This document shows positions 1 to 48,309 of a stretch of DNA of 64,000 nucleotides, in pieces. Under the pieces are notes generated by a model, which was given only the letters and a program-made list of their open reading frames with translations, ran no database searches and was not told the origin of the DNA. The position numbers were made by a program, and so were the translations under genes. The DNA comes from an uncultured bacterium (lineage in GTDB: Bacteria > Patescibacteriota > Minisyncoccia > Phycocordibacterales > GCA-2401445). Within the stretch, counting starts at the first letter, position 1. Every line of letters begins with the position of its first letter. Where the stretch lies: positions 206,661 to 270,660 of the forward strand of contig CALFYW010000016.1 of the NCBI GenBank assembly GCA_937952265.1, in the 5' to 3' direction.

Positions 1-1
1 G

Positions 2-250
2 CGCACCATCACCGAAGCGCAGATACACGAAAAAGATACTGGTTCACCAGATGTTCAAATCGCGCTCTTAAGTAAGAGTATTGATGAACTTGCAGCACAT
101 CTTAAAAAACATCGAAAAGACGTGCATTCCCGTCGTGGACTCTTGCAGATGGTAGCCGATCGTCGAACCCATTTGGATTACCTTAAAAAGAAAGATCCAA
201 AACGTTACGACCGAATTACTAAAAAATTTGATTTAAAAAAGAAAAATTAG
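2..250 (+). CDS. rpsO: 30S ribosomal protein S15, 5'-truncated by the window edge
   Basis: Frame-2 translation ...[61 protein letters not shown] is S15-like. TAG stop at 248-250 is followed by a hairpin terminator. pnp lies downstream as in the classic rpsO-pnp arrangement. Confidence 0.85.
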
Positions 251-41755: not shown

Positions 41756-42253
41756 TTATATCTTTCTTGAATCGTAAGCCCAGTGGAGGAGTGATTGTCG
41801 CTGTTTTGCTCTGCAGGAGAAATCTTTCGGACGGCAATTTTTTACAATTTGCGCGAGGTGTCTTTGATAGAAACGCCATCTTTTTATCTGTCGAAGATCA
41901 TCGGTGCTTCGTCTTCCGAGGTAATATCTGCAATACCACTGAAACCAACCTCGAGGATCTTGCGGGTGAACCCACCCCTTTTTCTGCCACACCTCAAGTG
42001 GTTGGCTCGCCTGTATTTTAAAATAATTGAGTTCTTTATATGCTTTTCCGTCGGGGGATAGTTTTGCGTTTTTAAACCATGAAGCAGGGAATTCAGAAGG
42101 TTTGTCGCTAAAATACGCTCCCCCAAATACACCCAACTGAAGCATCTCTGGTGGAGTGAGATCGGGTTTAAATGTTGGATCAAAGTTTTTTCCCACTGGT
42201 TCGGTGTAGGTGGGACGAGCTTCTTTTTTTTGGCTTTCGATACCAGCATTCAT
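41756..42253 (-). CDS. hypothetical protein (Trp/Arg-rich C-terminus)
   Basis: 165 aa. No TM and no recognisable motif. Confidence 0.35.
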   Translation of the reverse strand: MNAGIESQKKEARPTYTEPVGKNFDPTFKPDLTPPEMLQLGVFGGAYFSDKPSEFPASWFKNAKLSPDGKAYKELNYFKIQASQPLEVWQKKGWVHPQDPRGWFQWYCRYYLGRRSTDDLRQIKRWRFYQRHLAQIVKNCRPKDFSCRAKQRQSLLHWAYDSRKI

Positions 42254-42318
42254 AAGCTATTTTCTCAATGTAGGCCACGGAATCATAATGCTGGTTCTCT
42301 TCTTAATTGTCCCACTGG

Positions 42319-42404
42319 GCGGAGGGGGTGGGATTCGAACCCACGGTCCGGTTTCCCAGACTCCAGTTTTCAAGACTGGTACATTCGACCACTCTGTCAC
42401 CCCT
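42319..42404 (-). tRNA. tRNA-Ser (anticodon UGA)
   Basis: Acceptor GGAGGGG/CCCCUCC, anticodon loop CUUGAAA, long variable arm, T-loop UUCGAAU. Confidence 0.8.
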
Positions 42405-42501
42405 CCAATACACTCTAGGCTATCATATCAGAATGCATATATCTCGCAATTAAAATAAGGCACGCAGTACTTTTTTAATTAGTTTAGGGTAAGATAGCAG
42501 T

Positions 42502-42885
42502 ATGCGATTGATTGGTATTGATTATGGGACAAAACGTGTCGGTATCGCACTTTCTGATCCAGGGAGCACCTTTGCTTTGCCGTATAAGGTGATTCCTCGA
42601 GATGTGAATTTGGTAGCATTCCTTTTGGAATTGTGTAAGGAGAAGGAGGTTTGGCATGTGATACTCGGTGAATCTCTCAACCAGGAAGGAGTTCCAAATT
42701 CGGTAATGAAAGGTATTATAGAGCTTAAGCGGGAGCTTGAAGAAAAAGGGCTTACGGTGTCTCTGGAGAGCGAGGGTTTTACTTCATTTGAAGCAGAACG
42801 GTATCAGGGTAAACATGAGTATACGGACGCGTCTGCGGCGGCACTTATTTTACAACGGTATCTTGATAAAAATAATACCTTATGA
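42502..42885 (+). CDS. ruvX: YqgF/RuvX-like putative pre-16S rRNA nuclease (RuvC-like resolvase fold)
   Basis: MRLIGIDYGTKRVGIALSD... is the canonical YqgF N-terminus. Confidence 0.85.
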   Translation: MRLIGIDYGTKRVGIALSDPGSTFALPYKVIPRDVNLVAFLLELCKEKEVWHVILGESLNQEGVPNSVMKGIIELKRELEEKGLTVSLESEGFTSFEAERYQGKHEYTDASAAALILQRYLDKNNTL

Positions 42886-43086
42886 ATTTTGTTTGACGAA
42901 TTCAAAAATAATAAATTCTCGTATGTTTAGGGAGCGCCTCGGTAATATAATGCTTTAAATAGAGCTCATTTTGACTATTGACTTCAAATAAATAATATGC
43001 TATTCTACAAATAGAAACGGAAAATCGGTCACCAGGACCAACTTCGACCGTTCTTTGGTAAAACCTATAAAGAAGAAAGAATTGTT

Positions 43087-43899
43087 ATGGCGACAAAGCA
43101 CGTTGTTACTGGCGAGCATGCATTGAAGATCGGAAACAGGTTGGCGGAGATTCAACGGCAAGTATTCCTTCAAAAAGAATACGCCCACGACCCCGAAGAT
43201 TTGATTCGGCATCTCCAATGCGCGACTGAAGGTGAGTTTGTCGGAAATGAAGCAAAGAGTACCGTGGGGATCGCGGAACCGCAAATCATCATCCCCAACC
43301 TCCGCTCTATCGCCCCCACTCTCGCCGACTGGCTCAAAGCCCGTGAAGAACTTCACAAGTTTTTTACCGGCGAAACGATAATCTTGCGGGACATCTTCGC
43401 CTTTGAAGAGGCTGATCTTGACCGCACCGACATTATGCCCGCTTTCCGTCCAGCCGGTGCCACAAACCGTGATGTTGTAGACTGGAAGAAAAAGCTCGGT
43501 GTTGTGGTGTATGAAGAAGCTGACGTGATGAAGTATTCAGGTAGTACAGGTTCAAAAGAATCCGAACTTCTCCTCGTCAATCGTTCCCTTTGTCCGGACG
43601 ACGACACTTTGGACGATAATGCCAAAACACCGGATCAATTGATCCAAGTTCCAAACAGACTTTGGCTCCACCTCTTCGACTGGTGCGATGCCGACAACAT
43701 TCATTTTGTGGTAACAGATGAACATCTGGATCTGCAAACATGGACCTGGTTTCCACATGACCGCCTTCCCGGCGGCGCGGTCGCGTGTGGTGGCTGGGGT
43801 CCAGTCAACCGCGGGGTTTACCTCTACTGGGGCTGTCGCGGCTACCGCGGCGGCCTCTACGGTGCTCGTTCAACAAAAAAGGTTCCCCTCAAAACTTAA
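43087..43899 (+). CDS. DGR target (variable) protein with a C-terminal C-type-lectin-like VR-encoded region
   Basis: 270 aa. C-terminal FPHDRLPGGAVACGGWGPVNRGVYLYWGCRGYRGGLYGARS parallels the TR-encoded RLPGGGVAYGNWNPDNRKVYLNWNYRDNRNGNYGARS; the ...GARS ending resembles known DGR CLec-fold VRs. No signal peptide or TM is evident. Confidence 0.75.
   Translation: MATKHVVTGEHALKIGNRLAEIQRQVFLQKEYAHDPEDLIRHLQCATEGEFVGNEAKSTVGIAEPQIIIPNLRSIAPTLADWLKAREELHKFFTGETIILRDIFAFEEADLDRTDIMPAFRPAGATNRDVVDWKKKLGVVVYEEADVMKYSGSTGSKESELLLVNRSLCPDDDTLDDNAKTPDQLIQVPNRLWLHLFDWCDADNIHFVVTDEHLDLQTWTWFPHDRLPGGAVACGGWGPVNRGVYLYWGCRGYRGGLYGARSTKKVPLKT
43761..43872 (+). repeat. DGR variable repeat (VR)
   Basis: Aligns base-for-base with 44129-44240. 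Differences are concentrated at positions where TR has A. Confidence 0.8.
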
Positions 43900-43922
43900 A
43901 CCTTGTTTTCTTAACCCTTACC

Positions 43923-43950
43923 AACACCACTCTGGGAACAGAGTGGTGTT
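43923..43950 (+). promoter_or_regulatory. 12-bp GC-containing hairpin with GGAA tetraloop downstream of VR (DGR homing-associated stem-loop / target-gene terminator)
   Basis: AACACCACTCTG-GGAA-CAGAGTGGTGTT followed by TTGTTG. It lies 50 nt past the VR end. Confidence 0.55.
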
Positions 43951-44128
43951 TTGTTGTACAATAACAACGGCTGTTAAATTGGTCCGCCTATAGCAAGATA
44001 ACAATTTGCCGATATGTAGAAATTGCTTGTCGCGTCTTTACACTATGCCCGCTCTGCCACGGAGGAAACGCAGAAAATCTTCCCAAAAGATTTTTGGTGA
44101 AATGGACAAAGCGCGACAAAATGAGCCT

Positions 44129-44240
44129 CCGCCTTCCCGGCGGCGGGGTCGCGTACGGTAACTGGAATCCAGACAACCGCAAGGTTTACCTCAACTGGAA
44201 CTATCGCGACAACCGCAACGGCAACTACGGTGCTCGTTCA
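44129..44240 (+). repeat. DGR template repeat (TR)
   Basis: Non-coding copy of VR, rich in AAC codons in the VR reading frame (NWNPDNR...NWNYRDNRNGNY). 26 adenines, 18 of them substituted in VR. Confidence 0.8.
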
Positions 44241-44263
44241 GAAATTTCTTGCAAAAAGAGCCG

Positions 44264-44638
44264 TTACGGCTCTTTTTGTTGTGTTTGGGAAATAAACCAG
44301 CCACTTAACATTCTTCCAATTTCTACAGTTTGTGATGACAGGTATAAATATTGTTTCTCGGCGAGTATTTTAAGCTCAAATTCCGTTCTGATTAAATTAG
44401 CTAAAGTTTGCTGAAGAGTCCTAGTGGCCGATATGAACTCAATCTTTCTGACATCTCTTTTATTTGTTAGTGTGGCTTTTATAGAGTGTTTGAGCAAAGT
44501 CAGGCACTCTTTTTCAATATCCGCATGTATCCCCAGCTTATCCCTTTTCGACAGTTTCTGTCCTATAGTATAAATATCTTTATGCAAAATCCTAATCTTA
44601 TGAATAACAGCGGGAGTCTTGTCGGGGGGGGTACTCAT
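44264..44638 (-). CDS. Avd-like four-helix-bundle protein (DGR accessory variability determinant candidate), opposite strand
   Basis: 124 aa, basic. C-terminal ...FISATRTLQQTLANLIRTEFELKILAEKQYLYLSSQTVEIGRMLSGWF matches the four-helix-bundle / 23S-rRNA-IVS protein family pattern. Lies between TR and RT but on the minus strand. Overlaps the RT 5' end across a G8 homopolymer. Confidence 0.45.
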   Translation of the reverse strand: MSTPPDKTPAVIHKIRILHKDIYTIGQKLSKRDKLGIHADIEKECLTLLKHSIKATLTNKRDVRKIEFISATRTLQQTLANLIRTEFELKILAEKQYLYLSSQTVEIGRMLSGWFISQTQQKEP

Positions 44639-45688
44639 AGTTTGAATTTTTATGATGTAATTTGTCTTGAAAACCTCTTTAGAGCTTGGCGTAATTTCAG
44701 CAGAGGGAAGAGAGATAAAAGGGGAATTGGGGAGTTTGAGTTAAGAGTTGAAGAAAACCTTTTTTCTTTACATGAATTTTTAAAATCTGGAAATTGGACA
44801 CATGATCCTTACGTTCAAAGAAAGATATCAGATCCGAAACCTAGAATCATACATATTGCATCTGTTCGGGATAGGGTTCTCTTTCAAGCCACATACCAAA
44901 AATTGTATCAGATTTTCGATAAAACATTTATCCACGATTCCTATGCTTCTCGCAATTTCAAGGGCACTCACGCGGGTGTAAAGAGGTTTGAAGTTTTTGC
45001 AAGAAAAGTTTCTGAAAATCATACAAAGCCGGCTTTTGTCCTAAAATGCGACATCAGAAAATTCTTTGACAATATTGACCATGAGATTCTTTTTGATTTT
45101 ATAAAGGGAAGGATCAAAGACGGAAGACTGTTGAAGCTTATTTGGAAGATAGTTTCCTCCTTTGAAGCATCGCCCCACAAAGGATTGCCGCTTGGAAACG
45201 TAACCAGCCAGCTTTTTGCAAATATTTATTTAAACGATTTGGATCAATTGGTTAAGCACGAGCTTAAGCAAAAATATTATATCCGCTACTGCGATGATTC
45301 CGTTATGTTGAGCAACGACAGAGATGAAATTGAAAAAGTGGTCAGCACATTACGGAATTATCTAAAAGGAAACTTAAAACTTGAGCTTCATCCAAACAAA
45401 ATTACGATAAGAAAATTGAGACATGGAACTGACTTTCTCGGGTATGTTTCATTGCCTCATTACAGAGTTTTGCGAACAAAAACAAAAAAAAGAATGCTGA
45501 AGAGGTTGCGAGCTTTGGCAAACACTATAAAAACTAAAGATAATTTAGAAAAAATTCTGCCTATTATACGATCATATTTGGGAATGTTGTCCCACTGTAG
45601 GTCAGAAAAGGTGGTTAAAAGACTGAAAAATTATTGGCCTAGTAATTTAAATGGTATGATTATGGAACAATTTTATGATAACTTTTGA
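44600..45688 (+). CDS. DGR-type reverse transcriptase
   Basis: The tracked ORF starts at 44486; the likely start is the ATG at 44600 or 44582. N-terminus NFYDVICLENLFRAWRNFSRGKRDKRGIGEFELRVEENL..., motif GTHAGVKRFEVF, finger/palm LPLGNVTSQLFANIYLNDLD (the SQ motif replacing QG is characteristic of DGR RTs), catalytic RYCDDSVML. No maturase or endonuclease domain. Confidence 0.85.
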   Translation: MNNSGSLVGGGTHSLNFYDVICLENLFRAWRNFSRGKRDKRGIGEFELRVEENLFSLHEFLKSGNWTHDPYVQRKISDPKPRIIHIASVRDRVLFQATYQKLYQIFDKTFIHDSYASRNFKGTHAGVKRFEVFARKVSENHTKPAFVLKCDIRKFFDNIDHEILFDFIKGRIKDGRLLKLIWKIVSSFEASPHKGLPLGNVTSQLFANIYLNDLDQLVKHELKQKYYIRYCDDSVMLSNDRDEIEKVVSTLRNYLKGNLKLELHPNKITIRKLRHGTDFLGYVSLPHYRVLRTKTKKRMLKRLRALANTIKTKDNLEKILPIIRSYLGMLSHCRSEKVVKRLKNYWPSNLNGMIMEQFYDNF

Positions 45689-46001
45689 CGAATTCAATAA
45701 ACTAAATCTCGTGGTTGCAACAGTGACACATGTTGCGCGTGTTCCTGATACCGATCGCTTACTCAAACTTACCCTTAATATCGGCCAATCTGAACCACGG
45801 ATTGTCGTATCAGGCATCGCAGAACACTTTCCCAATGAAACAGAGCTTGTGGGTAAACAAGTGGTAGTACTCGCCAATCTTGAACCGCGGACTATTCGAG
45901 GTATTGAGAGCCAGGGAATGATTTTAGCGGTATCAGGGGATGATTCTTTTGCGCTCATTACCCCCACATCTTCAGTACCTCCCGGGAGCACCATTAGTTA
46001 A
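45675..46001 (+). CDS. tRNA-binding domain protein (Trbp111/CsaA-like, MetRS C-terminal-domain fold)
   Basis: KLNLVVATVTHVARVPDTDRLLKLTLNIGQSEPRIVVSGIAEHFPNETELVGKQVVVLANLEPRTIRGIESQGMILA matches the tRNA-binding OB-fold family. Confidence 0.75.
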   Translation: MITFDEFNKLNLVVATVTHVARVPDTDRLLKLTLNIGQSEPRIVVSGIAEHFPNETELVGKQVVVLANLEPRTIRGIESQGMILAVSGDDSFALITPTSSVPPGSTIS

Positions 46002-46600
46002 TGGAACCATATCTTTTAAAATACAAAGTGCGTGTACGGGAATGGGTGTTACGACACGCACGGGGGAAATACGCACTGGTCTGGTTGAGTGTGGTGTCAT
46101 TTACGGAGTCTTCTTTTTTTCTTATTCCACCCGACATCTTGCTCATCCCTCTTATCTTAGCGGGGACTCAAAGATGGTATTACTACGCAAGCATTACCAC
46201 GATCACCTCGGTCCTCGGGGGGGTGTTTGGATATCTCATCGGAGCCTTTTTCTTTGAGCTTGTTGGAAGGGAATTGGTTGAACTGTATCATCTAGGGGAG
46301 GAATTATTGATTGTTGAAACATGGTTTCAATCAAACGCTTTTCTGGCAGTGTTTCTTTCAGCGTTTACTCCCATACCCTATAAGATTTTTACTATTGGAG
46401 CGGGACTTTTTGGTGTGTCTTTCTTTGTGTTTCTCATCGCGTCTCTTCTGGGGCGCGGATTGCGCTACTTTCTTTTTAGTTACCTGTTCCATGTTTTTGG
46501 AGAACGTATCGGAAAAATTATTTTTCGTTACTTCAACATACTTTCATTGCTCGGAGCGCTACTCCTCATCGCGTTTCTCATCATTCGTTTCGCCGCTTAA
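46001..46600 (+). CDS. YqaA/DedA-like (SNARE-associated) membrane protein
   Basis: 199 aa, multi-TM, FLIPPDILLIPLILAG motif typical of the family. Start overlaps the upstream stop (TAATG). Confidence 0.55.
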   Translation: MEPYLLKYKVRVREWVLRHARGKYALVWLSVVSFTESSFFLIPPDILLIPLILAGTQRWYYYASITTITSVLGGVFGYLIGAFFFELVGRELVELYHLGEELLIVETWFQSNAFLAVFLSAFTPIPYKIFTIGAGLFGVSFFVFLIASLLGRGLRYFLFSYLFHVFGERIGKIIFRYFNILSLLGALLLIAFLIIRFAA

Positions 46601-46657
46601 CCCACAGGAGATGTAGTCTCTGTGTGCTATACTATAAAATATTAAGGGAGCTTTTTT

Positions 46658-47755
46658 ATGAGCGAAGCATCAGGACTTCTTAAATTATTTCCTCCACCAA
46701 AATTTTTAGAAATGCCAAGTGTGGGGTTAGACCTTTCTGATAACTCAGTTCGGTTTATTGATCTTGCGCGAAATAAAGAAACATTTTCAATTCTACGGCA
46801 CGCGCGCGAAGCGCTTCCCAAAGGTGCGATTGTAGGTGGAGAAATTAAAAATCCTGCGGCGCTTACTGAAAAATTAAAAACATTTAAGGAAAAACATGAT
46901 CTGCACTTTGTCCGCACCGCGCTTCCTGAAGAAAAAGCATATCTTTTCATGCTAGAACTCCCGCGCATGCCACACGAAGAAATCGGGAGCGCAATTCAAT
47001 TTCGACTTGAGGAGAATGTCCCGATTGAGCCACAAAATGCAATGTTTGATTATTGCATACTCAAGCATGTAGATACGGTATCACCCAAAGCGCTCCCCGT
47101 GGCAGTATCGGTATTTGATCGAAGCCTTATTGACCAGTACGTCGCGGCGTTTCTTTCTGCGGGATTAGTACCGCTTTCTTTTGAGCTTGAATCACAGGCG
47201 GTGGCACGATCAATTATTCCGCATAATAATCCGGCGACAACGATGATTGTTGATTTTGGGCAAACCAGGACCACGCTGGCTATGGCAAACGGGCATGTCA
47301 TTTCTTTTACTTCCACGGTTGAGATGGGGGGGAGTATGCTTACCAGCGCAATCCAAGAACACTTCTCTGTTTCTTTTGAGGAAGCAGAACGTATGAAGCG
47401 CGATCGAGGGCTTATTAAAAGCAGAAATAATAAAGAATTATATGAATTGCTACTTGAAAAAGTGGCAGTAATTAAAGAGGCAATCAACCGGCATTATGAG
47501 TATTGGCATACTCGACACGAATCTTCTGGTGCGGCACACGTGAAAGATCACTTAACAAAGATAATTTTGTGTGGCGGTGATTCATGTCTACCTGGTTTTT
47601 TTGAATATCTATCAGGCAATGTACCAATACCCGTTGAGATGGCAAATGTATGGATCAATCTCTTTTCGCTCGATGAACATATTCCTGATATTTCATTCAA
47701 TGATTCGATGGGGTACGCAACGGCAATTGGTTTAGCGCTCGATGAACATTTATAG
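46658..47755 (+). CDS. pilM: type IV pilus assembly protein PilM (actin-like ATPase fold)
   Basis: VGLDLSDNSVRFIDLARN (the GxDIG-like motif), MIVDFGQTRTTLAMA, and a C-terminal actin-fold region. Confidence 0.8.
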   Translation: MSEASGLLKLFPPPKFLEMPSVGLDLSDNSVRFIDLARNKETFSILRHAREALPKGAIVGGEIKNPAALTEKLKTFKEKHDLHFVRTALPEEKAYLFMLELPRMPHEEIGSAIQFRLEENVPIEPQNAMFDYCILKHVDTVSPKALPVAVSVFDRSLIDQYVAAFLSAGLVPLSFELESQAVARSIIPHNNPATTMIVDFGQTRTTLAMANGHVISFTSTVEMGGSMLTSAIQEHFSVSFEEAERMKRDRGLIKSRNNKELYELLLEKVAVIKEAINRHYEYWHTRHESSGAAHVKDHLTKIILCGGDSCLPGFFEYLSGNVPIPVEMANVWINLFSLDEHIPDISFNDSMGYATAIGLALDEHL

Positions 47756-47772
47756 AAAATTATAACAATGGC

Positions 47773-48309
47773 ATGTTGAGTTTTTTACCTGAGGTTACAA
47801 AAAAAGAAATCATTATGGCATACCGCTTTCGTGTGGGGGTGGTTGCCTCGATACTTCTGAGTGTGGTGGTGTTGTTTGCATTAGCGATGCTGATGCCCGC
47901 GTACCACCTTATTTTAGTTGAGGAAGAGATTGTTCAAGCCCGCGAAAAACAACTGAGTGAATCAGTAGTTGCTAAACAAATTGAGGCAGCGGAGAAACTT
48001 TTTTCAAGGGTATCGGAGCAGGCAGTGCTTCTTTCGGGTTTTGAACAAGCTTCTGTCGCGAGCGACATGATCTCTCGTATTACGGGGCTTCGGGGAGGGG
48101 ATGTTGCGGTTGAAAGTATTCGTTTTGAGCCAGGAGATGAACACAATACGCTTATCCTGCGGGGTGTTGCGGTGTATCGTGACGCGCTTCTTGTGTTCAA
48201 GGAGCGCTTAGTGGCACTCGATGACTTTAATGAGGTGGTTCTTCCTATTAAAGATCTGGCGCGTGATCGAGATCTTGAGTTTACCATTACCATTCAAGGT
48301 GATTTTTAA
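47773..48309 (+). CDS. PilN-like pilus assembly protein (single TM + coiled-coil)
   Basis: N-terminal TM (VGVVASILLSVVVLFALAMLM) followed by a coiled-coil and periplasmic domain. Follows pilM. Confidence 0.5.
   Translation: MLSFLPEVTKKEIIMAYRFRVGVVASILLSVVVLFALAMLMPAYHLILVEEEIVQAREKQLSESVVAKQIEAAEKLFSRVSEQAVLLSGFEQASVASDMISRITGLRGGDVAVESIRFEPGDEHNTLILRGVAVYRDALLVFKERLVALDDFNEVVLPIKDLARDRDLEFTITIQGDF

What the first reader, a model, noticed from the sequence alone, without database searches (positions are those of the whole stretch)
43087..45688. Complete diversity-generating retroelement (DGR): target gene with VR, template repeat, Avd-like gene and DGR-type reverse transcriptase
All hallmark parts are present within 2.6 kb. 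(i) A 270-aa target protein ends in a Gly/Trp/Tyr-rich ...GARS region. (ii) A non-coding 112-nt repeat lies 256 nt downstream and is packed with AAC codons in the VR frame. (iii) A basic four-helix-bundle-like ORF (Avd-like) lies between TR and RT. (iv) The RT has the DGR-specific ...LPLGNVTSQLFANIYL... finger motif and a Brt-like N-terminus (…ENLFRAWRNFSRGKRDKRG…, …KGTHAGVKRFE…) with no maturase or endonuclease domain. This is a hypermutation system actively rewriting the C-terminus of a host protein. The target has no signal peptide or TM segment, so the diversified protein may be cytoplasmic or exported by another route. The target N-terminal domain is unrecognised by me. Note: the window is ordinary compact chromosome around it (ruvX upstream, a tRNA-binding protein gene overlapping the RT stop), so the DGR looks chromosomal rather than prophage-borne.
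Basis: partly seen in the sequence, partly recalled or inferred. Interest (0 to 1): 0.85.

Follow-up and report, generated by a model that had tools for sequence, protein, structure and literature searches.

The report
Diversity-generating retroelement with structured template RNA
This is a genuine, complete diversity-generating retroelement of the type already known to be common in ultra-small (CPR/Patescibacteria) bacteria; it rewrites the tail of one C-type-lectin-fold protein, and its template sits inside a conserved folded RNA that I could not find described.

Summary
The target ORF 43087-43899 carries a 112-nt VR (43761-43872). A non-coding TR lies at 44129-44240. They differ at 20 positions, 18 of them at TR adenines (Fisher p = 9e-13). 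The RT (44600 or 44642 to 45688) has the DGR signature LGNVTSQ, and its best solved relative is the Bordetella phage bRT. This TR-(avd)-RT layout is the published "B3" architecture that makes up 90% of CPR DGRs. The target family (40 homologs, all Parcubacteria-like, no Pfam) models as a divergent C-type-lectin/FGE fold. Relatives show VR-restricted variation in natural populations. Synteny shows a chromosomal, non-phage element. The DGR itself is therefore an ordinary new member of a known kind.

The added value is a roughly 315-nt structured RNA around the TR, supported by covariation (72 pairs, 91% paired, 46 with compensatory changes) and present in 48 of 56 related loci. Its bridging strand pairs with both flanks of the TR, as the Bordetella Spacer does, but it lies 5' of the TR. 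It matches no Rfam family, and I found no description of it in the held literature.

The parts
43087..43899 (+). Target (variable-protein) gene, 270 aa. Residues 1-65 form a poorly conserved helical N-terminus. Residues ~70-270 form a confidently modelled divergent C-type-lectin/FGE-like fold. No TM segment or signal peptide.
43761..43872 (+). Variable repeat (VR), encoding residues ~226-262 of the target.
   Evidence: 112-nt repeat with 20 mismatches to the TR, 18 at TR adenines. The last 16 nt (43857-43872) are identical to the TR (IMH-like block).
43923..43950 (+). GC-rich hairpin plus T-run, 24 nt after the target stop codon. It is the target-gene terminator and the likely counterpart of the DGR hairpin downstream of IMH.
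   Evidence: Terminator scan. An equivalent hairpin plus T-run is present in nearly all related loci.
43957..43962 (+). -10-like box TACAAT, the putative promoter of the template RNA.
   Evidence: A TATAAT/TATACT/TACAAT box, often with a TG extension, ends 6-9 nt before helix P1 in nearly all of 37 aligned loci. Its role as a promoter is inferred.
43968..44011 (+). RNA helices P1 (43968-71/44008-11 and 43976-81/44002-07) and P2 hairpin.
   Evidence: Covariation. Coordinates.
44018..44039 (+). 'Bridge' strand. Positions 44018-44026 (AGAAAUUGC) pair with the 3' flank of the TR. The directly following 44027-44039 are the 5' strand of P3 and pair with the segment just 5' of the TR.
   Evidence: RNAalifold finds both helices unaided. 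The pair 44023/44244 covaries: C-G 17, U-A 15, U-G 2, other 1. P3 has 9 of 12 pairs with double changes.
44040..44119 (+). RNA domain holding P4 (44048-51/44060-64), the P5 hairpin (44068-82/44087-98) and the P3 3' strand (44108-44119). It ends 9 nt before the TR.
   Evidence: P5 has 6 of 9 outer pairs with compensatory changes.
44129..44240 (+). Template repeat (TR), non-coding. It has 26 adenines and 7 AAC codons in the VR frame.
44241..44249 (+). 3' strand of the long-range helix (GAAAUUUCU), starting exactly where VR/TR identity ends in the window.
44251..44279 (+). 3' stem-loop with an A-tract, GC stem and U-tract, giving the shape of a bidirectional intrinsic terminator. The avd stop codon sits in its loop. 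It is a candidate counterpart of the Avd-binding stem-loop just 3' of the TR in other DGRs.
   Evidence: Terminator scan, 13 pairs. Compensatory changes across loci. Comparison with bioRxiv 10.1101/2023.10.23.563531.
44264..44638 (-). avd (accessory variability determinant), 124 aa, pI 9.75, divergent from the RT.
   Evidence: Pfam bAvd above its cutoff. NCBIfam DivGenRetAVD E = 4e-12, below its cutoff. Same position and strand in L003, L004, L008 and L009.
44600..45688 (+). DGR reverse transcriptase. The start is ATG 44600 or TTG 44642. It carries LGNVTSQ, YCDD, and equivalents of bRT R74, D138, I181 (as L) and Q187.
   Evidence: Motif definition from PMC7826257.

Best explanation
This is a chromosomal diversity-generating retroelement of the CPR/Patescibacteria clade, with architecture target(VR) - TR - (avd, reverse strand) - RT.

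Proposed mechanism:
1. A roughly 315-nt non-coding RNA (about 43968-44280) is transcribed from its own promoter, directly after the target-gene terminator. It ends at a stem-loop/terminator that overlaps the avd stop codon.
2. This RNA folds so that one 5' 'bridge' strand (44018-44039) pairs with the 3' flank of the TR (44241-44249) and with the segment 9 nt upstream of the TR (44108-44119). The TR is thereby closed into a loop.
3. The RT-Avd complex binds this RNA. It primes cDNA synthesis in cis at the inner end of the 44018-26/44241-49 duplex.
4. It copies the TR (44240 towards 44129) with random misincorporation opposite the 26 adenines. It stops at helix P3.
5. The cDNA replaces the VR (43761-43872). 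This recodes about 17 codons on the ligand-binding face of a C-type-lectin-fold protein, with up to 4^26 DNA variants.

What is shown: the repeat and its A-specific differences; the RT, Avd and target identities; the RNA secondary structure, by covariation; the conserved layout in dozens of loci; and VR-restricted variation in relatives.

What is inferred: transcription start and end; cis-priming from the bridge strand; stopping at P3; present-day activity in this genome; and the ligand and cellular location of the target.
For: TR/VR pair: 18 of 20 differences are at TR adenines, p = 9e-13.

RT: LGNVTSQ fits the DGR signature [I/V/L]GxxxSQ. Bordetella bRT is the best PDB match at E = 2.5e-43, against 6.6e-24 for group II intron RTs, and R74, D138 and the YxDD aspartates are conserved.

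Avd: Pfam bAvd above threshold.

Architecture: TR-(avd)-RT equals published architecture B3, which is 90% of CPR DGRs. The same order and strands occur in L003, L004, L005, L008 and L009. In 31 of 31 related loci with enough DNA, a VR lies 342-460 nt upstream of the TR. There, 490 of 871 TR adenines differ against 9 of 2341 other bases.

Natural diversification in the target family: in 90%-identity clusters 2, 4 and 6 most or all differences fall in the last 50 residues (24 of 27, 26 of 36 and 13 of 13 variable columns). The one relative whose DGR is decayed (L005) has an invariant VR.

RNA: 72 pairs, 91.1% of cells paired against 39-50% when the partners are slid. 46 pairs have double changes. 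The covariation score is 0.446 against at most 0.137, and 0 of 500 shuffles reach it. The long-range helix was predicted independently by RNAalifold. Abundant G-U pairs fix the strand as +. The element is found in 48 of 56 RT loci with enough upstream DNA. The topology matches the Bordetella TR:Sp and avd:Sp duplexes.

Chromosomal context.
Against: - There is no population or read data for this genome. Its target protein cluster has a single sequence, so current activity is unproven.
- Two VR/TR differences are not at adenines. Such differences occur in 23% of published DGRs.
- NCBIfam Avd and group-II RT models hit below their cutoffs.
- The priming site and RNA ends are inferred by analogy only.
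- The long-range helix has just two varying pairs; the other six are invariant or depart only by unpaired cells.
- If the 3' stem-loop terminates efficiently, how the RT mRNA is made (antisense through avd) is unexplained.
Confidence: 0.92

Rival explanations
1. This is a fossil DGR. The cassette once diversified the target but is now inactive, and the VR is frozen.
For: Only one VR sequence is known for this genome. A relative at the same chromosomal site (L005) is decayed: avd is frameshifted, the RT has lost the LGxxxSQ region, and the VR is invariant across its 4 cluster members, the representative alone being seen on 15 contigs.
Against: In the window the RT and avd ORFs are intact, with all catalytic and signature residues. 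The TR keeps 26 adenines and 7 AAC codons. The RNA helices are intact. The target ORF is open.
Confidence: 0.15
2. This is not a DGR. A group II intron-type or retron-type RT happens to lie next to a tandem duplication of a gene's 3' end.
For: The best NCBIfam hit of the RT is the group II intron RT/maturase model (164 bits), and retron models also hit weakly.
Against: All those hits are far below their cutoffs (300 and 235 bits). The RT has SQ, not QGxxxSP. bRT is the best structural relative by 19 orders of magnitude in E-value. No group II intron or retron RNA is found in Rfam scans. Avd is present. The mismatches are A-specific at p = 9e-13. The same pattern holds in 31 related loci.
Confidence: 0.01
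3. The DGR is carried by a prophage or other mobile element, and the target is a phage receptor-binding protein.
Against: The flanks are ruvX, tRNA-Ser, a tRNA-binding protein, DedA/VTT, pilM, thrS and rplS. The same ruvX...pilM site is occupied in L005 and is empty in L010. The RNA core motif has 0 hits in 2.9 million IMG/VR contigs but occurs in 13 held cellular loci. The CPR DGR clade is reported as cellular.
Confidence: 0.03
4. The conserved structured region 5' of the TR is not a priming scaffold. It could be a promoter or leader, a regulatory sRNA, or a stability element. In that case priming would use downstream sequence antisense to avd, as the Spacer does in Bordetella.
For: The priming site is inferred only by topology. 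Handa et al. report stem-loops and up/downstream duplexes in CPR DGRs from just 40 nt upstream and 100 nt downstream of the TR. The sequence 3' of the stem-loop shows some conservation (ATCCAGCC), although it is avd coding sequence on the other strand.
Against: The bridge strand pairs with both TR flanks, in the same 5'-to-3' order as Sp47-56 and Sp59-70. The duplex begins exactly where VR/TR identity ends. A terminator-shaped stem-loop follows at once. The region downstream is constrained by avd coding on the other strand.
Confidence: 0.3

Closest known systems
CPR/Patescibacteria DGRs: architecture B3, TR-(avd)-RT, of Wu et al. 2018 (PMC5758913); DGR clade 2 of Roux et al. 2021 (PMC8144416); Paul et al. 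2017
   Same: Same gene order and strands. Cellular and chromosomal. The host lineage is CPR. The target has no TM segment or recognisable domain apart from a C-terminal VR. The RT belongs to a very large CPR RT family (7336 hits).
   Different: Nothing essential differs; this is a further member. The target family (40 proteins, no Pfam) could not be matched to the published VR classes (UVR1-6, CLec) because the supplementary data were not available.
Bordetella phage BPP-1 DGR (mtd-avd-TR-brt) and its DGR RNA (avd 3' end - TR - Spacer; PDB 8ub7)
   Same: The RT is homologous, with conserved R74, D138, [I/L]GxxxSQ and YxDD. Avd is present. The TR/VR pair is A-specific. The target has a CLec fold. 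There is a hairpin after the VR. Two adjacent RNA duplexes clamp the two ends of the TR through a single bridging strand.
   Different: Here avd is on the opposite strand and lies 3' of the TR. The bridging strand and most of the structured RNA lie 5' of the TR instead of in a 140-nt 3' Spacer, which amounts to a circular permutation. Only about 40 nt follow the TR before a terminator-like hairpin. The element is chromosomal, not phage-borne. The Rfam RT-10 motif (the BPP-1 Spacer) does not match.
Retron msr-msd RNA (a1/a2 duplex with a branching G)
   Same: A 5' strand pairs with the sequence immediately 3' of the template. This places an internal nucleotide next to the first templated base, and structured RNA lies between the primer strand and the template.
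   Different: There is no sequence or Rfam similarity. The RT is DGR-type, not retron-type. The product is expected to be recombined into the VR rather than kept as msDNA. The resemblance is topological only.
DGR variable proteins of solved structure: Mtd (1yu0), TvpA (2y3c), TaqVP (5vf4); also FGE/EgtB-type CLec folds and the Legionella Lcl C-terminal domain
   Different: Sequence identity is 6-19%. There is no Pfam FGE-sulfatase or DUF1566 hit even at E = 10. Foldseek is not significant. The C-terminal motif is G-A-R-x-A rather than the usual ...GFR...

Membership tests
Diversity-generating retroelement (DGR) | TR/VR repeat pair whose differences fall at adenines of the TR | tested here: met
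   18 of 20 differences are at 26 TR adenines, against 2 at 86 other bases; p = 8.8e-13.
Diversity-generating retroelement (DGR) | VR lies in the 3' end of a protein-coding gene; the TR is a separate copy rich in AAC codons | tested here: met
   The VR covers codons ~226-262 of a 270-codon ORF. The TR is intergenic and has 7 AAC codons in frame.
Diversity-generating retroelement (DGR) | RT with the signature [I/V/L]GxxxSQ in place of QGxxxSP, and closest to DGR RTs | tested here: met
   LGNVTSQ aligns with bRT IGSLTSQ. bRT (8ub7) is the top PDB hit at E = 2.5e-43. Motif definition from PMC7826257. No phylogeny against a curated RT set was run.
Diversity-generating retroelement (DGR) | Accessory protein Avd (in most DGRs) | tested here: met
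   Pfam bAvd 43.2 bits, above its cutoff of 40. NCBIfam equivalog 46.3 bits, below its cutoff of 80. Basic, pI 9.75.
Diversity-generating retroelement (DGR) | Variable region displayed on a C-type-lectin (or Ig) fold | tested here: met
Diversity-generating retroelement (DGR) | IMH-like identical block at the 3' end of the VR, followed by a GC-rich inverted repeat | tested here: met
   16 nt are identical (43857-43872 = 44225-44240), then the sequences diverge. A hairpin lies at 43923-43950. It sits 50 nt downstream and also looks like the gene's terminator, so its DGR role is inferred.
Diversity-generating retroelement (DGR) | cis-acting RNA flanking the TR that pairs the up- and downstream flanks (DGR RNA) | tested here: met
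   The covariation-supported helices 44018-26/44241-49 and 44027-39/44108-19 clamp the TR. The arrangement is permuted relative to Bordetella.
Diversity-generating retroelement (DGR) | Demonstrated mutagenic retrohoming (VR variation in a population, cDNA) | not testable with these tools
   Only one VR sequence is known for this genome. Relatives of the target family do show VR-restricted variation.
CPR DGR architecture B3 (Wu et al. 2018) | Order TR - avd on the reverse strand - RT, with the target upstream | tested here: met
   Coordinates and strands. Definition.
Group II intron | Intron RNA domains flanking the RT ORF; QGxxxSP motif; maturase score above the family cutoff | tested here: not met
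   No group II intron RNA is found in Rfam scans. The motif is SQ. TIGR04416 scores 164 bits against a cutoff of 300.
Retron | Retron-type RT and an msr-msd RNA family match | tested here: not met
   Retron RT models score 65 bits or less against cutoffs of 235 or more. There is no retron RNA match in Rfam.
Rfam RT-1..RT-19 motifs (Weinberg 2017), including RT-10 = BPP-1 Spacer RNA | Covariance-model match | tested here: not met
   No Rfam family other than tRNA gave a credible match in 42000-47000 at E <= 1 with permissive filters. The whole-window scan at gathering thresholds found only tRNAs.

The most novel reading that the evidence does not exclude
The CPR-clade DGRs use a template RNA that has not been described. 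It would be a discrete, roughly 315-nt transcript with its own promoter and terminator. The priming/stop 'bridge' strand and most of the protein-binding structure lie 5' of the TR, which is a circular permutation of the Bordetella avd-TR-Spacer RNA and is topologically retron-like. [quoted passage not shown] If it holds, it gives a compact, covariation-defined RNA family that marks thousands of CPR DGRs. It also gives a second, independent architecture for testing how DGR RTs are cis-primed.
Probability: 0.45. Interest if true: 0.6.

Novelty: new member of a known kind. Interest (0 to 1): 0.4.

Why it matters
The DGR itself adds one more example to a class already known to be abundant in CPR bacteria, so it changes little.

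Two things are useful:
- It defines a small, Parcubacteria-restricted family of apparently cytoplasmic, or unconventionally exported, CLec-fold proteins that are hypervaried in nature. The ligand is unknown. The question of what ultra-small episymbionts diversify, and why, remains open.
- The covariation-supported RNA around the TR gives a concrete, testable model of how the reverse-avd (B3) DGRs organise priming and termination. It could serve as a sensitive marker for finding TRs, and as a minimal scaffold for engineered DGR mutagenesis.

Tried and rejected
- Pfam (also at E <= 10) and NCBIfam on the target gave nothing.
- A PDB sequence search with the target profile gave only chance hits.
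- Foldseek against the PDB found nothing significant. The top hit, at E = 2, was Mtd.
- A PDB sequence search with Avd gave nothing.
- The first genome scan with the 27-sequence alignment failed because it had no conserved stretch. It was redone with 11 sequences.
- Paul et al. 2017 (PMC5436926) is not held, and the supplements of Wu et al. are not held. I therefore could not check whether this VR class or this RNA is listed there.
- A loose three-block RNA pattern in IMG/VR gave 120 hits. All were chance, with none confirmed by nhmmer. A specific 22-base core pattern then gave 0 hits.
- A second VR elsewhere in the window was searched for and not found.
- I considered whether the upstream conserved block might be coding (ORFs 44006-44161 and 44094-44414). 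I rejected this because of non-triplet indels, compensatory pair changes and G-U pairs.
- I did not build a covariance model, because nhmmer plus pair counts answered the question.
Full report
**1. Observation**

The region holds a 270-aa ORF (43087-43899, +). A 112-nt direct repeat lies at 43761-43872 and 44129-44240. In register (offset 368 nt) the two copies differ at 20 positions. Eighteen of these are adenines in the downstream, non-coding copy, which has 26 A among 112 nt. Two are not at adenines (43778 C against G, and 43788 T against C). Fisher's exact p is 8.8e-13. In the reading frame of the ORF the downstream copy carries seven AAC codons plus AAT, AAG, GAC and TAC/TAT codons. The substitutions fall in first and second codon positions. 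A scan of the whole window that ignored TR adenines found no further VR on either strand. The repeat is therefore a textbook TR/VR pair.

**2. Proteins**

- **RT.** The RT matches Pfam RVT_1 (E = 5.7e-26). Among solved structures its best relative is the Bordetella phage DGR RT bRT (8ub7, E = 2.5e-43). The best group II intron RT reaches 6.6e-24.
  - In that alignment LGNVTSQ matches bRT I181-GSLTSQ187. This fits the DGR signature [I/V/L]GxxxSQ, which replaces QGxxxSP in other RTs (PMC7826257).
  - bRT R74, D138 and the YMDD aspartates are matched by R, D and YCDD.
  - NCBIfam group II, retron and DRT models all score far below their cutoffs.
  - The start is either ATG 44600 or TTG 44642. Homology to bRT begins five codons after the latter.
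- **Avd.** Avd is real (Pfam bAvd 43.2 bits against a cutoff of 40; pI 9.75). It is on the minus strand (44264-44638), head to head with the RT. The public gene calls for this locus miss it.
- **Target.** The target has no Pfam or NCBIfam hit, even at E = 10.
  - It has 40 homologs, all from Parcubacteria-like CPR genomes or metagenomes, such as Candidatus Taylorbacteria.
  - The family shares a conserved core (residues ~70-225), a variable N-terminus, and a C-terminus of the form VAxGxWxxxxxxVxLxWxx...GARxA.
  - With this alignment AlphaFold gives pLDDT >94 for residues 70-270.
  - Foldseek is not significant. The fold assignment is therefore moderately, not strongly, supported.
  - There is no hydrophobic segment.

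**3. Architecture and relatives**

The order target(VR) - TR - (avd, reverse) - RT is the 'B3' architecture. Wu et al. found it in 90% of CPR DGRs and almost nowhere else (PMC5758913). Roux et al. describe a CPR-restricted, cellular DGR clade whose targets typically lack TM or other recognisable domains (PMC8144416).

- The same order and strands recur next to target homologs in L003, L004, L005, L008 and L009. VR/TR differences there are 17/0, 16/0, 14/1 and 21/0 (A against non-A) in the four aligned loci.
- A metagenome scan with an RT alignment returned 80 loci. In all 31 loci holding the RNA element (metagenome and genome loci together) with enough upstream DNA, a VR lies 342-460 nt upstream of the TR on the same strand. 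Across them, 490 of 871 TR adenines differ, against 9 of 2341 other bases.

**4. Activity**

For this genome only one target sequence is on record, so current activity cannot be judged.

- Within the family, 90%-identity clusters 2, 4 and 6 contain proteins whose differences fall mostly or entirely in the last 50 residues. The counts are 24 of 27, 26 of 36 and 13 of 13 variable columns.
- The cluster belonging to L005 shows no VR variation at all. The L005 cassette is decayed: avd is frameshifted, and an internal RT deletion has removed the SQ motif. This serves as a natural negative control.
- The window's RT, avd, TR and target are all intact.

**5. Genomic setting**

The flanks are ruvX, tRNA-Ser, a tRNA-binding-domain protein (14-nt overlap with the RT stop), DedA/VTT, pilM, thrS and rplS.

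- L005 has the DGR at the same ruvX...pilM site.
- L010 has ruvX directly followed by the tRNA-binding gene, with no DGR between them.

The element is chromosomal and has been kept vertically in at least two lineages.

**6. The template RNA**

The 160 nt between the target terminator and the TR are non-coding, yet strongly conserved. An nhmmer profile finds this stretch in 48 of 56 RT loci that have more than 720 nt of upstream DNA. It is always on the + strand, 490-606 nt before the RT.

RNAalifold on 35 non-identical sequences (alignments A5 and A6) gives the following elements:
- helices P1/P2 (43968-44011);
- a long-range helix, 44018-26 with 44241-49;
- P3, 44027-39 with 44108-19;
- P4 and P5;
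- a 3' stem-loop, 44251-79.

Counting these 72 pairs gives the following:
- 91.1% of cells are paired, against 39-50% when the partners are slid by 1-3 columns.
- 46 pairs have changes on both sides.
- The covariation score is 0.446, against at most 0.137 for the slid controls.
- None of 500 shuffles reaches the observed values.

The long-range helix is mostly invariant, but its pair 44023/44244 switches between U-A (15 sequences) and C-G (17 sequences), with one exception. Frequent G-U pairs place the structure on the + strand RNA.

A -10-like box, often TG-extended, ends 6-9 nt before P1 in nearly all loci, directly after the target terminator hairpin and T-run. The 3' stem-loop has an A-tract, GC stem and U-tract, which is the shape of a bidirectional terminator. 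The avd stop codon lies in its loop. The simplest reading is a discrete RNA of about 315 nt.

**7. How it likely works**

In the Bordetella RNP one Spacer strand forms two adjacent duplexes (bioRxiv 10.1101/2023.10.23.563531):
- Sp47-56 pairs with TR117-129. This is the template:primer duplex, and the 2'-OH of Sp A56 primes.
- Sp59-70 pairs with the avd segment just upstream of the TR. This is the 'cPRT stop'.

Here one strand (44018-44039) does the same two things, in the same 5'-to-3' order.
- It first pairs with the 3' flank of the TR. That duplex begins exactly where VR/TR identity ends in the window (44240/44241).
- It then pairs with the segment 9 nt upstream of the TR.

The difference is connectivity. 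The bridge strand lies 5' of the TR, and only about 40 nt follow the TR. I therefore infer several steps:
- cis-priming occurs near C44026/U44027;
- synthesis runs from about 44240 to about 44129;
- synthesis stops at P3;
- the 3' stem-loop may be the counterpart of the Avd-binding stem-loop reported just downstream of TRs.

This is a topological argument, not a demonstration. Handa et al. surveyed only 40 nt upstream and 100 nt downstream of TRs, so they would not have seen the bridge strand 105 nt upstream. No Rfam family matches, including Weinberg's RT-1..19 motifs, of which RT-10 is the BPP-1 Spacer (PMC5737381; Rfam scans). My literature searches found no description. Paul et al. 2017 could not be read. 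The specific core motif is absent from IMG/VR but present in 13 distinct held cellular loci.

**8. Verdict**

The DGR is a new member of a well-known, CPR-typical kind. The most interesting by-product is the covariation-supported, apparently permuted template RNA, which deserves a dedicated test. How the RT mRNA is transcribed, through or past the terminator-like stem-loop and antisense to avd, remains unexplained.

Noticed in passing
window 43968-44279 (+); alignments A5/A6; loci L003-L091: There is a conserved, covariation-supported structured RNA around the TR, with 72 pairs, 46 of them with compensatory changes. A single 5' bridge strand pairs with both TR flanks. It matches no Rfam family and I found it in no held paper. 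It is present in 48 of 56 related RT loci.
   Followed up: yes
L005:5180-6393 (Candidatus Taylorbacteria MHSA01000011): A relative at the same ruvX...pilM chromosomal site has a decayed DGR. Its avd is frameshifted (the longest ORF is 69 aa), and its RT has an internal deletion joining ...KKFF to ANIYL..., which removes the LGxxxSQ motif. Its target cluster (P0014) shows no VR variation, unlike clusters 2, 4 and 6.
   Followed up: partly
L002:4001-4819, L010:4001-4801, L011:4001-4609: These target-family homologs have no TR, avd or RT within the DNA held. In L002, ruvA and rpsT follow the gene. Yet the L002-type cluster (P0002, P0161-P0164) varies almost only in the VR, which suggests either a DGR acting in trans from elsewhere in the genome or strain-specific loss.
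   Followed up: partly
L001:1582-2208 (public gene calls for the same locus, Logan SRR7515932): Automatic annotation calls no gene for avd. It calls the RT from an upstream GTG (387 aa) that runs antisense through avd. DGR accessory genes of this reverse-strand type are probably under-annotated.
   Followed up: no
window 44600-44642: The avd start (ATG at 44638, minus strand) and the RT start are head to head. They overlap by 39 nt if the RT starts at ATG 44600, or are separated by 3 nt if it starts at TTG 44642. There is no intergenic promoter region for either gene. How the RT is transcribed is unclear; read-through of the TR RNA stem-loop is one possibility.
   Followed up: no
window 43923-43962 and the equivalent position in 37 loci: The target-gene terminator hairpin, its T-run and a TG-extended -10 box for the TR RNA are packed into about 40 nt. 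The arrangement is conserved, so the terminator T-run may double as the promoter's upstream element.
   Followed up: partly
window 46658-48309: pilM and downstream small membrane-protein genes (pilN/pilO-like by position) lie 1 kb from the DGR, as they do in L005. There is no evidence of a functional link to the target.
   Followed up: no
P0164 (cluster 2 of the target family): One natural variant has a frameshifted C-terminus starting inside the VR (...CGSARFPKNLVLVPFG). This is consistent with the indels next to AAC repeats reported for DGRs, or with an assembly error.
   Followed up: no
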